DNA of 10,981 nucleotides from positions 1 through 10,981 of IMG/VR virus record IMGVR_UViG_2562617057_000004; one strand, 5' to 3'. Positions 1,725-3,919 of this stretch are shown here, piece by piece; the stretch's first letter is position 1, and each line of letters starts with the position of its first letter. The notes beneath the pieces were generated by a model. That model was not told the origin of the DNA, made no database searches, and was given only the letters and a program-made list of their open reading frames with translations. A program made the translations under genes and the position numbers. This stretch comes from a virus. Its lineage: Duplodnaviria; Heunggongvirae; Uroviricota; Caudoviricetes.

Positions 1725-2138
1725 TCAGATGGTTTTCAGTATGCGATCGATGTCGCCGTCATCGCCCGGGTTTCTGCCATCGTATGCCATGCCAGCTGAT
1801 ACGGCTTTCGGGCTGTGTATGTCCATAAAGTTTTCAAAGGCTGCGGTAAGCTCTGGTGCAACCTTCTGGCGTTCCTGCTCTATGGTCATGCTAAGAATGC
1901 TTTTAGCCGTACCAACATCGATACAAGGCACGTTTGCCATTGCACGTAACAGCGGCTGATAGTCGCCAGATTCATCAAGCGCCATAATCGCATCAGCGCG
2001 CGGCTTGTCCTGCTCTTCCAGTTTGTTAAGTTGATATATGGCCTCGTAGGTTGATAACCCTCTGTCAGCCATTGCCCGCGCTTCGGCTTTAAATTTACTC
2101 GCCAGCGGTAGCGCCATGATGCTTTCATTCGTTGCCAT
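1725..2138 (-). CDS. Hypothetical protein, last gene of the capsid operon
   Basis: 137-aa ORF, AGGGGGAA SD upstream of ATG at 2138, 12-nt gap after the gpD-like gene; no family recognised. Confidence 0.6.
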   Translation of the reverse strand: MATNESIMALPLASKFKAEARAMADRGLSTYEAIYQLNKLEEQDKPRADAIMALDESGDYQPLLRAMANVPCIDVGTAKSILSMTIEQERQKVAPELTAAFENFMDIHSPKAVSAGMAYDGRNPGDDGDIDRILKTI

Positions 2139-2150
2139 CGTTCCCCCTGC

Positions 2151-2486
2151 TTATCGGGCCAGCGGCTGAACGGATACGCCAGAACCCGTAAAGGCGGCGC
2201 ATTTTTTCGCATCGGTGTCGACGCTCTCAGGCCAGTTAACGGCGGCAATATTGAATATCCCCGTCTTGTAACACTGTGCTGATTTCTGCTTTGACGTGTC
2301 CACGGGGTACGCCGTCAGATAAACAGCCTTGCCAGATTCCTGACCATCCCACGCCTTAAACTCGCCATTGTCCGCCAGCATCAGCGGGGTAAATTCCTGA
2401 ATAACGCCAGCATCAGCGGCAAAATGTACCAGCGTCGTGGCGACCTGCTGACTGCCTGCAAATAACTCAACATATGGAGTGCCCAT
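2151..2486 (-). CDS. Head decoration protein, lambda gpD family
   Basis: 111 aa; TPLMLADNGEFKAWDG..YKTGIF..WPE..KK.AAFTGSG matches recalled gpD TPLMLDTSSRKLVAWDG..YKSGTF..WPE..KKRTAFAG; GGGAGA SD. Confidence 0.85.
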   Translation of the reverse strand: MGTPYVELFAGSQQVATTLVHFAADAGVIQEFTPLMLADNGEFKAWDGQESGKAVYLTAYPVDTSKQKSAQCYKTGIFNIAAVNWPESVDTDAKKCAAFTGSGVSVQPLAR

Positions 2487-2497
2487 AGAATCTCCCG

Positions 2498-3553
2498 TTA
2501 ACCAATTTTGACGGTAACAAATTTGCGAATATCTGCCGGAACCGGCTGCGGTGCGCTGTGCGTCTGCACGTACTCAATCGCCGGATCGCCGTCCTCAATC
2601 CAGTTTTTCGGGTAAAACATGTTTTGCGTTGCGCCCGTTCTTACTGCGTCCTGATCCATAATCGCACCATAGGCCACCAGCCCTTTATTGTTGGTGTTGC
2701 CCAGGACAAGCAAATCAGGCTCAAGGAAATATTTTTCGGTGCCGTCGCTGTCGGCGTATTTGCCGGAATAGACGATAAGGGCAATATCGCCCAGATAGCC
2801 TTTAAAGCTCACCACTTCGCCCAGGTTTTTACACGCCAGCTCTGCGGCGGATTCTGAACCACGGGAAAGATCGTACAGCTCGCGGAATTTTTTAAAGCTG
2901 CGTAACGTTCGCCATACCTCAGCGCCCATAATCATGACGTTGGCGGGGCAGCTGGCCTGTTCGGCGTATAGCTCGATGTCATCTGTCGGATCATGCGTCT
3001 CTTTATTCTGCTCAGACCATTTTTTTCCTGGCCCCTGATGGACAATGCAGTTTGCCGGCATATTCCAGTCGATTTCATAGCGTTCTATGCCTTCGCCTTC
3101 AATGATGTTTTTTCCGGTCGTGACCGCATTCACTGCCAGCCATTCCACACGCGCTTTAATGGCGTTTATCTGGCGGCGCATGTTGCCAGTAATGAGGCGC
3201 ATACGTCGCCAGGTGGGGTCGTTAAGCTGTGCCGGATCTTCTCCAGCCATGCGCATAATGGTTTTTGATGGATCGATTTCGTGCTTGGGCTTCATGTAGC
3301 CGGGGCGGATAGTGCTTGTTTCGTACCCTTTATCGCGCTGAACCTGGCTACCCACCATAGGCGAACAAAACGCCGACATGGTGACTTCTTCAATATCCAG
3401 GGTATCCAGCATGATGTCCTGCGTGTTGAAGGTCGCCACGTTCGGAAAAAACAGCGACGTAAACAGCGGACTGAATCTAAAATCCGGAACATCCTGCCGA
3501 TTCAGGTACGCGAAAAGCTGGTTAGTGTTAAGAGCCGTTGCTTTACCTGCCAT
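2498..3553 (-). CDS. Major capsid protein, lambda gpE family
   Basis: 351 aa; shared blocks with recalled gpE: PGYMKPKHE, EDPAQLNDP, DPTDDIELYA, RSFK, RGSES, VSFKGYLGDIALIVYSG, LVLGNT, YPKNW..GDPA, SAP; start ATG overlaps the stop of the upstream ORF. Confidence 0.92.
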   Translation of the reverse strand: MAGKATALNTNQLFAYLNRQDVPDFRFSPLFTSLFFPNVATFNTQDIMLDTLDIEEVTMSAFCSPMVGSQVQRDKGYETSTIRPGYMKPKHEIDPSKTIMRMAGEDPAQLNDPTWRRMRLITGNMRRQINAIKARVEWLAVNAVTTGKNIIEGEGIERYEIDWNMPANCIVHQGPGKKWSEQNKETHDPTDDIELYAEQASCPANVMIMGAEVWRTLRSFKKFRELYDLSRGSESAAELACKNLGEVVSFKGYLGDIALIVYSGKYADSDGTEKYFLEPDLLVLGNTNNKGLVAYGAIMDQDAVRTGATQNMFYPKNWIEDGDPAIEYVQTHSAPQPVPADIRKFVTVKIG

Positions 3554-3759
3554 TATTCACCCCCGTGAACCTGATTCATGCCCAACGCCGCACGTAAATA
3601 GGCGCGCACCTGCCAGCCTGTTGACGGCTCAACCATTGCCAGCGGATCAAGTCCTGCCGCAATGCTCGCTTTTACGTTCTGCTGGTGGCGTTCCTTGAGT
3701 GCCTCCACGATGTCGGGGCTTATGTAGACTGTAACCCCACCTTTTTTCTCTTCTGCCAT
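3553..3759 (-). CDS. Hypothetical small protein, first gene of the capsid operon (possible scaffold or assembly factor)
   Basis: ORF track 3553..3792; internal ATG at 3759 has an AGAGGAA SD whereas the ATG at 3792 has none; stop overlaps the capsid gene start. Confidence 0.5.
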   Translation of the reverse strand: MAEEKKGGVTVYISPDIVEALKERHQQNVKASIAAGLDPLAMVEPSTGWQVRAYLRAALGMNQVHGGE

Positions 3760-3792
3760 AGTCAGAAATTCCTCTTTGACGTTAAAAATCAT

Positions 3793-3843
3793 AACTGGAT
3801 GTTCATCCAGTTATGATTATAATCATGATTTCATATTTCGCAA
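3793..3843 (-). promoter_or_regulatory. Putative sigma70 promoter with palindromic operators for the capsid operon
   Basis: Minus strand TTGCGA -16 nt- TATAAT; perfect 14-bp palindrome ATGATTATAATCAT (3813-3826) over the -10; inverted repeat AACTGGAT-gttc-ATCCAGTT (3793-3812) near +1. Confidence 0.45.
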
Positions 3844-3919
3844 TAATATCGATCCATGTTGCAAATTATGAAATGATTTCCGGAAACAGTAGTCACCATG
3901 CTGTTAACCTCATATATGA

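What the first reader, a model, noticed from the sequence alone, without database searches (positions are those of the whole stretch)
1725..3845. Satellite carries its own lambda-type capsid shell operon (gpE-like plus gpD-like) with no portal, protease or large terminase in the window
A self-contained unit (palindrome-controlled promoter, 68-aa ORF, gpE-family major capsid, gpD-family decoration, 137-aa ORF, terminator) sits inside a P4-int / AlpA / primase island. This suggests the element builds or re-sizes capsids with its own shell proteins while taking portal, terminase and tail from a lambdoid helper, by analogy with the SaPIbov5 Ccm capsid homologue. I cannot tell from the window whether this arrangement is already described for enterobacterial satellites; the two small ORFs have no recognisable family and may be size-determination or scaffold factors.
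Basis: partly seen in the sequence, partly recalled or inferred. Interest (0 to 1): 0.85.

Follow-up and report, generated by a model that had tools for sequence, protein, structure and literature searches.

The report
Satellite island's own lambda-type capsid genes
An E. coli phage-parasitic island (PICI) really does carry its own lambda-type capsid, decoration and mini-scaffold genes without portal or terminase, but this arrangement was already described and tested in the model island EcCICFT073, where the genes neither shrink capsids nor are needed for transfer, so their role is still unknown.

Summary
A four-gene operon lies on the minus strand at 1725-3845. It encodes a 68-aa protein, a gpE-family major capsid protein (MCP), a gpD-family decoration protein and a 137-aa protein. 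It has its own promoter with a palindrome and a terminator on each side. It sits in an int/AlpA/primase/SSB island that has no portal, protease or TerL gene.

The arrangement is not new. The four proteins are 91-96% identical to c1498-c1501 of EcCICFT073, and the MCP is PDB 3BQW. [quoted passage not shown] This argues against capsid re-sizing.

New here:
- The 137-aa protein is a truncated homologue of the lambda Nu3/gpC scaffold C-terminus.
- The satellite E and D proteins form their own clade. They are at most 46% identical to any of 50,697 phage records but 63% identical between E. coli and Edwardsiella satellites. MCP dN/dS is about 0.1-0.17.
- The operon is a cassette between two cosQ-cosN copies. 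In sister islands the slot holds a ClpP::HK97-capsid fusion or nothing.
- This island has no Rpp/TerS gene. It carries a helper phage's cosN-cosB-nu1' fragment instead.

The most likely role is an accessory, redundant shell of normal size built by the satellite. Function remains unproven.

The parts
3916..3964 (-). Terminator-like hairpin upstream of the operon. It insulates the operon from SSB-side transcription.
   Evidence: Inverted repeat of 19 nt, 89% complementary. RNA fold -17.5 kcal/mol, z = -3.45. Conserved in CFT073, IHE3034 and EH41.
3816..3843 (-). Sigma-70-type promoter of the capsid operon (TTGCGA-16-TATAAT).
   Evidence: 10 of 12 consensus matches. The -35 and -10 are conserved across E. 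coli islands and recognisable in the E. tarda island. Consensus match only; activity not shown.
3787..3818 (-). Perfect 15-nt inverted repeat overlapping the -10 and start site. Candidate operator, or hairpin plus U-run acting on read-through RNA.
   Evidence: -18.2 kcal/mol, z = -6.8. Conserved in E. coli islands. The binding protein is unknown.
3553..3759 (-). 68-aa protein of unknown function (c1498 orthologue), translationally coupled to the MCP gene.
   Evidence: 94% identical to CFT073. phrog_3255. Homologues precede the MCP gene in Salmonella and Edwardsiella satellites. AF2 pLDDT 75: extended N-terminus plus two helices. No significant fold or family match; only RHH_1/BrnA hints at E~0.1. 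dN/dS 0.08-0.47.
2498..3553 (-). Major capsid protein, lambda gpE family, satellite-specific clade (c1499 orthologue).
   Evidence: PF03864 E=9e-50. 91% identical to CFT073 c1499, which is PDB 3BQW, E=3.8e-219. 43% to lambda gpE and 45% to PhiR12 gpE. Best of 50,697 phage records is 45.6%. dN/dS 0.09-0.17.
2151..2486 (-). Head decoration protein, gpD/SHP family (c1500 orthologue).
   Evidence: PF02924 E=2.9e-17. PDB 1TD0 (phage 21 SHP) E=1.4e-13 and lambda gpD E=1e-9. 95% identical to CFT073.
1725..2138 (-). 137-aa truncated scaffold homologue ('mini-Nu3', c1501 orthologue).
   Evidence: BLASTP 36% to residues 416-493 of PhiR12_1 gpC/Nu3, E=1e-8. hhalign against a Nu3 alignment: probability 96%, E=3.4e-9, covering lambda Nu3 residues 120-189 of 201. 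Shared IMALDE...PGMTV..AK.IL repeat and F..FM..HSP.AV..G tail. AF2 model is all-helical with low confidence. dN/dS 0.07-0.27.
1702..1721 (-). Intrinsic terminator of the operon.
   Evidence: 8-bp GC-rich stem plus T7. -15.6 kcal/mol, z = -4.1.
1647..1694 (-). cos1: cosQ (GGGTCCT) plus variant cosN (GGGCGGGAGCGG instead of lambda GGGCGGCGACCT). The working cos of the island.
   Evidence: Alignment with the lambda cos junction. Regex scan. The same cosN occurs in 79 IMG/VR contigs, including real lambdoid phages.
1368..1667 (-). Helper-derived cosN-cosB-nu1' fragment. It includes the first 24 codons of a Nu1-type TerS gene (1368-1439) and then breaks off.
   Evidence: 96-97% identical over 300 nt to phage contigs L044, L045, L046, L083 and L086, starting exactly at cosN. 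24 of 24 aa match PhiR12_1 Nu1. No Rpp/TerS ORF is present here, whereas CFT073 has the 144-aa gene published as RppA/c1503 (PMC6739421) and IHE3034 has a 180-aa TerS.
4087..4133 (-). cos2: second cosQ-cosN copy in direct orientation, without cosB, just after the SSB terminator. Left boundary of the capsid cassette.
   Evidence: Homology between islands with different cassettes ends about 25 nt after this site.

Best explanation
The region is the 'late zone' capsid cassette of a classical Gram-negative PICI of the EcCICFT073 type.

What it encodes:
- a satellite-specific lineage of the lambda shell proteins: a gpE-like MCP and its cognate gpD-like decoration protein;
- a truncated Nu3-like scaffold that keeps only the C-terminal repeats and tail of the helper's scaffold/protease family;
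- a 68-aa protein of unknown role, translationally coupled to the MCP gene.

Most likely mechanism (inferred, not shown): after helper induction the operon is expressed. The satellite MCP, guided by the mini-scaffold, assembles lambda-sized (T=7-like) shells on the helper's portal. The helper protease processes these shells. The helper terminase fills them with PICI concatemers, recognising the helper-type cos carried by the island. The satellite decoration protein then stabilises the expanded shells. The helper supplies the tail.

The module is accessory and redundant with the helper's own shell under laboratory conditions. It behaves as an exchangeable cassette between two cos copies. It does not redirect capsid size.
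For: Shown here:
- Family membership of the MCP, the decoration protein and the Nu3-like protein.
- Tight operon with its own promoter and terminators.
- All four ORFs are intact and identical in length in four islands. dN/dS is well below 1, with MCP at 0.09-0.17.
- The module is present in 591 of 5,426 complete E. coli genomes.
- The satellite E and D proteins form a separate clade. Identity to every phage record is at most 46%. Identity to the co-resident helper's gpE in E. tarda is 44-48%. Identity between E. coli and E. tarda satellites is 63% (MCP) and 51% (D). This argues for long-term maintenance in satellites rather than recent capture.
- No portal, protease or TerL in the window or next to related islands.
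- A helper-type cos is present.

Inference from established lambda biology: gpD binds only expanded, DNA-filled heads. A conserved cognate D therefore implies that satellite-MCP shells mature.

Literature: EcCICFT073 particles hold phage-sized DNA, consistent with a normal-sized shell (PMC6092414).
Against: - Deleting c1499 or c1500 in EcCICFT073 did not affect transfer by resident prophages or interference with lambda (PMC6092414). No phenotype supports any function.
- No one has shown satellite MCP in particles.
- Compatibility of a 43-48% identical MCP with the helper's portal, protease and connectors is assumed.
- The E. tarda satellite lacks the 137-aa gene, so the mini-scaffold is not universally needed.
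- Sister islands do without any capsid cassette.
Confidence: 0.45

Rival explanations
1. Insurance or helper-range module. The cassette matters only when the helper's own shell is unavailable or incompatible. Examples: the satellite is embedded in and disrupts a helper late gene, the helper's capsid is blocked by a host defence, or the helper is heterologous. This is a conditional version of the best explanation.
For: Helper-embedded PICIs most often integrate in helper gene E and carry their own E homologue. A backup role has been proposed for these (PMC10111431). An E. tarda satellite with the same 70-aa/MCP/D trio sits inside the portal gene of a lambdoid prophage. There was no phenotype with lambda or the CFT073 prophages, as expected if the function is conditional.
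Against: This window's island family integrates next to cspD/clpS, not in a prophage. A backup MCP that is only 44-48% identical to the helper's may not substitute for it.
Confidence: 0.25
2. Interference module. The satellite MCP co-assembles with and poisons helper capsids, or the mini-Nu3 competes with helper Nu3/gpC for the shell interior, lowering helper yield.
For: The 137-aa protein keeps only the C-terminal part shared by Nu3 and gpC, the form expected of a competitor. PICIs commonly carry interference genes in this zone.
Against: Each EcCICFT073 gene located after the ori was expressed alone and only RppA (c1503) inhibited lambda. Deleting c1503 fully restored plaques (PMC6739421). 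The c1499 and c1500 deletions did not relieve interference.
Confidence: 0.1
3. Capsid size redirection, as with SaPIbov5 Ccm (one of the two options the first reader raised). The satellite MCP forces small capsids that exclude the helper genome.
For: Analogy only: the satellite encodes an MCP homologue, and PmCI172, which also has one, makes small capsids (PMC6092414).
Against: For the 91-96% identical EcCICFT073 module, all packaged DNA was phage-sized. The MCP is full length and co-linear with gpE over residues 10-351.
Confidence: 0.05
4. Functionless relic of a captured helper late-gene cluster that is drifting toward loss.
For: There is no deletion phenotype. The cassette is absent from some sister islands. 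Late-gene capture by PICIs is documented. Truncated or deleted variants of the 137-aa protein and a disrupted MCP (L036) exist.
Against: dN/dS is 0.09-0.27 with identical ORF lengths in four islands. The clade is deep and satellite-specific, with no close phage donor. The promoter, RBS and terminators are conserved.
Confidence: 0.1

Closest known systems
EcCICFT073 genes c1498-c1501 (classical Gram-negative PICI; Fillol-Salom et al. 2018, ISME J, PMC6092414)
   Same: Same four genes in the same order with identical lengths (68, 351, 111 and 137 aa), 91-96% aa identity. Same conserved promoter and palindrome. cos lies immediately downstream. Same island plan: int-alpA-...-primase-late zone.
   Different: This island has no rppA. 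Downstream of cos it carries a helper cosB and only 24 codons of nu1. Its cosN is a variant, not the lambda sequence. An SSB gene plus a second direct cos copy lies upstream, where CFT073 has a PerC-family gene. It uses a different integrase and attachment site (cspD side rather than phoQ side).
Phage lambda head genes Nu3/C, D and E
   Same: Homologous MCP (43%), decoration protein (37%) and scaffold C-terminus (hhalign E=3.4e-9).
   Different: Gene order is small-ORF, E, D, mini-Nu3 instead of C/Nu3, D, E. There is no protease domain, portal, W, FI, FII or terminase. The scaffold homologue lacks the N-terminal third. The unit has its own sigma-70-type promoter instead of late pR' transcription.
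Capsid-forming PICIs (cf-PICI, EcCIEDL933; Alqurainy et al., bioRxiv 10.1101/2022.09.08.507074)
   Same: PICI backbone (int, alpA, rep) with satellite-encoded capsid proteins.
   Different: cf-PICIs encode the full head and packaging set (MCP, protease, portal, connectors, HNH, TerS, TerL) and make small capsids. This island has only shell, decoration and a scaffold fragment.
SaPIbov5 Ccm
   Same: A satellite-encoded homologue of the helper's major capsid protein in a cos-packaged island.
   Different: Ccm redirects the helper MCP into small capsids. The EcCICFT073 orthologue does not change the size of the packaged DNA and is dispensable.
Sister PICIs with a ClpP-protease::HK97-type MCP fusion cassette (IMG/VR loci L014, L038 and others)
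   Same: Same SSB-cos...cos-99aa backbone. The cassette sits in the same cos-bracketed slot. It also starts with a ~69-aa ORF translationally coupled to the capsid gene.
   Different: The capsid fold family is unrelated at sequence level (PF25209 plus PF00574). There is no decoration or Nu3-like gene. These islands carry a 180-aa DUF1441 TerS-like gene.

Membership tests
Classical Gram-negative PICI (EcCICFT073 type) | Co-directional int, alpA and primase/rep genes, followed by a late/packaging zone, in an island of about 10-20 kb | tested here: met
   int 9743-10981, AlpA 9124-9420 (PF05930), primase 5141-6895 (D5_N, DUF5906, Pox_D5), SSB, then the capsid operon. All lie on the minus strand of a 10,981-base window.
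Classical Gram-negative PICI (EcCICFT073 type) | Carries a helper-type cos site for packaging by a lambdoid helper | tested here: met
   cosQ-cosN-cosB at 1368-1694 aligns with lambda cos. It is 96-97% identical to the cos-nu1 region of real lambdoid phages.
Classical Gram-negative PICI (EcCICFT073 type) | Orthology of the capsid genes to c1499/c1500 | tested here: met
   91% and 95% aa identity. MCP matches PDB 3BQW at E=3.8e-219.
Classical Gram-negative PICI (EcCICFT073 type) | Helper-induced excision, replication and high-frequency transfer | not testable with these tools
   Experimental property. Shown for EcCICFT073 in PMC6092414, not for this island.
Classical Gram-negative PICI (EcCICFT073 type) | Rpp or TerS-like packaging-redirection gene (present in many members, not all) | tested here: not met
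   Only a 24-codon nu1 remnant lies between cos and the 99-aa gene. CFT073 has the gene published as RppA/c1503, and IHE3034 and EH41 have a 180-aa TerS.
Capsid-forming PICI (cf-PICI) | Encodes portal, prohead protease, head-tail connectors, TerS and TerL in addition to the MCP | tested here: not met
   No ORF in the window hits these families. Related islands are flanked by chromosomal genes.
Lambda gpE major capsid family (PF03864) | Full-length match above the Pfam gathering score and to solved gpE structures | tested here: met
   170 bits against a cut-off of 22.9, residues 10-349. 7VI9 lambda gpE E=1.1e-82.
gpD/SHP head decoration family (PF02924) | Match above the gathering score and to solved gpD/SHP structures | tested here: met
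   63.3 bits against a cut-off of 29.1. 1TD0 E=1.4e-13 and 7VII gpD E=1.3e-9.
Lambda Nu3/gpC scaffold C-terminal region | Sequence homology to the C-terminal repeats and tail shared by Nu3 and gpC | tested here: met
   hhalign probability 96.1%, E=3.4e-9. BLASTP E=1e-8 to the PhiR12_1 gpC C-terminus. phrog_53 positions 494-567 of 583, E=2e-8.
Lambda Nu3/gpC scaffold C-terminal region | Full-length scaffold (~200 aa) or S49 protease domain | tested here: not met
   The protein is only 137 aa. It has no Peptidase_S49 hit, and the alignment covers only the last ~70-135 residues of Nu3.
Lambda Nu3/gpC scaffold C-terminal region | Scaffolding activity (binds the MCP, promotes procapsid assembly, is removed on maturation) | not testable with these tools
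   The AF2 model is helical but low confidence (pLDDT 48). There are no biochemical data.
Ccm-type capsid size redirection (SaPIbov5) | Satellite MCP homologue causes small capsids and island-sized packaged DNA | not testable with these tools
   Literature on the 91-96% identical EcCICFT073 module reports phage-sized DNA only and no deletion phenotype (PMC6092414). In effect the feature is not met for the orthologue.
P4-like satellite | sid, psu and delta capsid-size, decoration and transactivation genes | tested here: not met
   No such families appear among the Pfam or PHROG hits. Shared features are the P4-type integrase, AlpA, a D5-type primase, Icd/Ash-like ORFs and C4/isrK RNAs.
Ribbon-helix-helix regulator (idea for the 68-aa protein) | Significant RHH profile or fold match | tested here: inconclusive

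The most novel reading that the evidence does not exclude
Classical enterobacterial PICIs keep private, anciently diverged capsid-shell lineages as exchangeable cassettes in a slot between two cos sites. The cassette is either lambda E+D+mini-Nu3 or a ClpP::HK97-capsid fusion.

On this reading the cassettes yield mosaic virions: a satellite shell on a helper portal, neck and tail. That would be a functional intermediate between classical PICIs and capsid-forming PICIs. The second, cosB-less cos copy would give the terminase an extra termination point when it fills phage-sized heads with island multimers.
Probability: 0.2. Interest if true: 0.65.

Novelty: already known. Interest (0 to 1): 0.3.

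Why it matters
The finding as stated, a satellite with its own gpE/gpD genes but no portal or terminase, has been in the literature since 2018. It was tested there with negative results, so it is not a discovery.

What remains open is why about 11% of complete E. coli genomes keep a satellite-specific shell module under purifying selection when it has no laboratory phenotype.

The analysis here sharpens that question in four ways:
- The module also contains a scaffold fragment.
- It is a swappable cassette bounded by cos repeats.
- Its MCP and D proteins are a lineage separate from all sequenced helper phages.
- A natural candidate helper with a matching variant cos is identifiable.

Together these make the 'mosaic virion' and 'conditional backup' hypotheses directly testable.

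Tried and rejected
- Structure-based annotation of the 137-aa protein failed. The AF2 model has pLDDT 48 and is unusable for fold search.
- The idea that the 68-aa protein is a gpW homologue (same length as lambda W) is rejected: hhalign E=0.34 over 4 columns.
- Homology between the 68-aa protein and the 69-aa ORF of the HK97-type cassette is not supported: hhalign E=0.24, although the two align in register.
- The word-indexed homologue search and the exhaustive phmmer search for the 137-aa protein returned almost only close E. coli relatives. Two distant hits, P0071 and P0072, were still useful for the Nu3 alignment.
- I looked for literature after 2019 assigning a function to E. coli PICI capsid genes and found none in the held library.
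- I considered an ordinary prophage or a cf-PICI. Both are rejected for lack of portal, protease and TerL and because the flanks are chromosomal.
- PhiR12_1 was first considered as the helper type. Its cosN is lambda-type and its cos region is only 78% identical. IMG/VR phages with the exact variant cosN match much better, at 96-97%.
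Full report
**1. What is in the window**

The window is a complete-looking Gram-negative phage-inducible chromosomal island (PICI). All of its genes read on the minus strand:
- a P4-type tyrosine integrase (9743-10981);
- AlpA (9124-9420);
- a 'Bro/immunity' zone with Ash/Icd-like reading frames (7400-9100). It holds two C4 antisense RNAs and an isrK RNA;
- a DUF4222 protein and a D5-type primase (5141-6895);
- an 85-aa protein and an SSB (4174-4596);
- the region of the finding.

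**2.

On the minus strand there is a tight operon:
- a 68-aa ORF (3553-3759);
- a 351-aa major capsid protein (MCP) of the lambda gpE family (2498-3553; PF03864 E=9e-50);
- a 111-aa gpD/SHP-family decoration protein (2151-2486; PF02924 E=2.9e-17);
- a 137-aa ORF (1725-2138).

The mechanical ORF call gives 79 aa for the first gene. The conserved RBS and the alignment with four other islands place the start at ATG 3759, which gives 68 aa. The stop of the 68-aa ORF overlaps the MCP start codon.

The signals around the operon are:
- a good sigma-70-type promoter, TTGCGA-16-TATAAT, at 3843-3816;
- a perfect 15-nt inverted repeat at 3787-3818 that overlaps the -10;
- a terminator hairpin upstream (3916-3964) and another downstream (1702-1721) that insulate the unit.

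No ORF in the window matches a portal, prohead protease or large terminase family.

**3. It is already known**

The four proteins are 94, 91, 95 and 96% identical to the products of four consecutive genes of E. coli CFT073. Gene order and gene lengths are identical. Those genes belong to EcCICFT073, the prototype Gram-negative PICI. The MCP is the protein crystallised as PDB 3BQW.

Fillol-Salom et al. 2018 (PMC6092414) explicitly noted the capsid protein c1499 and the head decoration protein c1500 and drew the Ccm analogy. They then showed three things:
- all packaged DNA is phage-sized;
- deleting c1499 or c1500 does not relieve interference with lambda;
- these deletions do not affect transfer by the resident prophages.

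The 2019 follow-up (PMC6739421) cloned each gene located after the ori separately. Only c1503 (RppA) inhibited lambda.

A 2023 survey states that an MCP gene is present in 21 of 29 reference GN-PICIs and is not required for transfer. It defines a variable 'Late zone' in these islands (PMC10111431).

I found no later paper in the held library that assigns these genes a function.

The module is common. 591 of 5,426 complete E. coli genomes carry at least 80% of it at about 90-92% DNA identity. In IHE3034, EH41, O121 and CFT073 the islands are bounded by chromosomal genes, not phage head genes.

**4. What the analysis adds**

*(a) The 137-aa protein has a recognisable family.* Three results link it to the scaffold/protease C-terminus:
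- It hits the C-terminal end of the 'head maturation protease' PHROG.
- It aligns at 36% identity with residues 416-493 of the gpC/Nu3 protein of phage PhiR12_1 (E=1e-8).
- In a profile-profile comparison it matches lambda Nu3 residues 120-189 of 201, with probability 96% and E=3.4e-9.

The alignment shows two copies of the Nu3 repeat (IMALDE...PGMTV..AK.IL). It also shows the conserved tail F..FM..HSP.AV..G...D.D..L. The protein is therefore a truncated scaffold with no protease domain. Its AF2 model is all-helical but of low confidence.

*(b) The satellite shell proteins are their own lineage.* Identities are:

| Comparison | MCP | D |
|---|---|---|
| Best of 50,697 phage records | 45.6% | - |
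| E. tarda satellite vs its co-resident helper | 47.7% | 41% |
| Window vs E. tarda satellite | 63% | 51% |

For scale, the E. tarda helper's own gpE is 81% identical to PhiR12 gpE. The E. tarda satellite is helper-embedded, sitting inside the portal gene of a lambdoid prophage.

Among four E. coli islands dN/dS is 0.09-0.17 for the MCP and 0.07-0.27 for the 137-aa gene. All ORF lengths are conserved. Amino-acid variation in the MCP clusters at residues 1-54 and 164-201.

These data argue against a decaying relic and against recent capture from a helper.

*(c) The operon is a cassette between two cos copies.* Each boundary has the same block: a terminator, then cosQ (GGGTCCT), then cosN. One copy follows the SSB gene (4087-4133). 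The other follows the 137-aa gene (1647-1694). The two are in direct orientation.

In sister islands from IMG/VR with the same SSB and the same terminal 99-aa gene, the slot holds one of three things:
- this E-type cassette;
- a different cassette, consisting of a 69-aa ORF translationally coupled to a 637-aa ClpP-protease::HK97-type capsid fusion;
- nothing.

Homology between the island types stops about 25 nt after the upstream cos. The cassette is thus optional, which fits its dispensability in the laboratory.

*(d) This island has no Rpp/TerS gene.* From cosN onward, 300 nt are 96-97% identical to the cos region of genuine lambdoid phages. This stretch covers cosN, cosB and the first 24 codons of nu1. 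Those phages carry the same variant cosN, GGGCGGGAGCGG rather than lambda GGGCGGCGACCT. Homology begins exactly at cosN. The nu1 frame then breaks off into the 99-aa gene region.

One such phage (L044) and an island copy with a 100% identical capsid module (L043) come from the same IMG genome. That phage is a natural candidate helper.

The E-type cassette therefore coexists with three different packaging solutions: the gene published as RppA/c1503 in CFT073, a 180-aa TerS in IHE3034 and EH41, and a bare helper cos here. It is independent of the packaging-redirection function.

*(e) The 68-aa protein remains unassigned.* It always precedes the MCP gene and is coupled to it, also in Salmonella and Edwardsiella. 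Its AF2 model (pLDDT 75) shows an extended N-terminus and two helices. Only sub-threshold RHH/BrnA hints appear. No fold match was found. A role as an autoregulator acting on the promoter palindrome is a hypothesis only.

**5. Mechanism**

The most economical reading is that the island encodes a working shell kit of normal size: MCP, cognate decoration protein and a minimal scaffold. This kit would assemble on the helper's portal, be processed by the helper protease, be filled by the helper terminase at the island's helper-type cos, and be joined to helper tails.

Two inferences support this reading:
- gpD-type proteins bind only expanded, DNA-filled heads (established lambda biology). Co-conservation of a cognate D suggests that satellite-MCP shells mature.
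- The phage-sized DNA in EcCICFT073 particles fits a T=7-like shell.

The steps from expression to incorporation are inferred. None is shown. The published deletions show that the module is at best redundant with lambda and the CFT073 prophages.

The rivals are:
- a conditional backup or helper-range role, which is closely related to the main reading;
- interference, which the single-gene expression data disfavour;
- size redirection, which the packaged-DNA size disfavours;
- a relic, which selection and clade structure disfavour.

**6. Verdict**

The re-sizing option is contradicted by published experiments on a near-identical module.

The arrangement is already known, so overall interest is modest. 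The residual value is threefold: the Nu3-like identity of the 137-aa protein, the exchangeable cassette between two cos copies, and a concrete candidate helper. Together these make the long-standing question 'why do classical PICIs keep capsid genes?' experimentally tractable.

Noticed in passing
window 1368-1667 (-): The stretch from cosN through cosB to codon 24 of nu1 is 96-97% identical to genuine lambdoid phage contigs. Homology starts exactly at cosN, and the nu1 frame is cut off after 24 codons. This looks like a cos-end-mediated chimera between the island and a helper. The island lacks any Rpp/TerS gene.
   Followed up: yes
window 4087-4133 (-) and 1647-1694 (-): Two direct copies of terminator + cosQ + cosN lie 2.44 kb apart with the same variant cosN (GGGCGGGAGCGGCGC). 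The upstream copy has no cosB. In IHE3034 the SSB-side copy is degenerate and the working copy is lambda-type. CFT073 instead has two inverted cos copies around rppA.
   Followed up: partly
IMG/VR loci L014, L021, L026, L034, L038, L075 and others: Sister PICIs carry a different capsid cassette in the same cos-bracketed slot: a 69-aa ORF plus a 637-aa ClpP-protease::HK97-type capsid fusion (PF00574 + PF25209). L039 and L056 have an empty slot, with 751 nt between SSB and the 99-aa gene. L038 additionally encodes a lambda tail-assembly-protein-I homologue.
   Followed up: partly
L008 (Edwardsiella tarda chromosome CM130058.1) 810-10606: A helper-embedded PICI sits inside the portal gene of a lambdoid prophage. 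It has the 70-aa/MCP/D trio but no 137-aa gene. The helper's own C, D and E genes lie just downstream.
   Followed up: partly
window 7631-7719 (-), 8109-8196 (-), 8218-8294 (-): Two C4 antisense RNAs (74-75 bits) and one isrK RNA (63.5 bits) lie in the Ash/Icd-like zone. These are P4-type immunity RNA elements. The 415-aa ORF at 7866-9113 and the 167-aa ORF at 7412-7915 overlap them and are probably composite or spurious frames.
   Followed up: partly
window 4958-4985 and 5043-5070: Two 28-nt direct repeats lie 85 nt apart, just downstream of the primase gene. Each contains the palindrome GTAGACAG...CTGTCTAC. They are a likely replication-origin element.
   Followed up: no
window 2498-3553 (-), MCP residues 1-54 and 164-201: 35 of the 44 amino-acid positions that vary among four E. 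coli islands fall in these two patches. The rest of the protein is almost invariant. This could reflect surface or partner-contact regions under diversifying pressure.
   Followed up: no
137-aa protein family (alignment A1: P0027, P0028, P0031): Natural 93-aa variants carry an in-frame deletion of residues 21-64 between the repeated RAMA motifs, removing one Nu3-type repeat.
   Followed up: no
window 1055-1354 (-): A 99-aa protein (phrog_1561) is conserved at the end of every island type examined (70-100% identity), whatever the capsid cassette or packaging gene. Its function is unknown.
   Followed up: no
window 3845-3880 (-) and E. tarda L008 ~8880-8960: Repeated TGCAA/TTGCA motifs around the -35 region of the capsid-operon promoter are conserved between the E. 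coli and E. tarda islands, although the downstream palindrome is not. They may be an activator binding site.
   Followed up: no
L002 (E. coli O121 NZ_CP119441.1): An island whose capsid module is 100% identical to the window's is otherwise decayed: the primase is split by an IS110 element and the integrase by IS21. All four capsid-operon ORFs are still intact.
   Followed up: no
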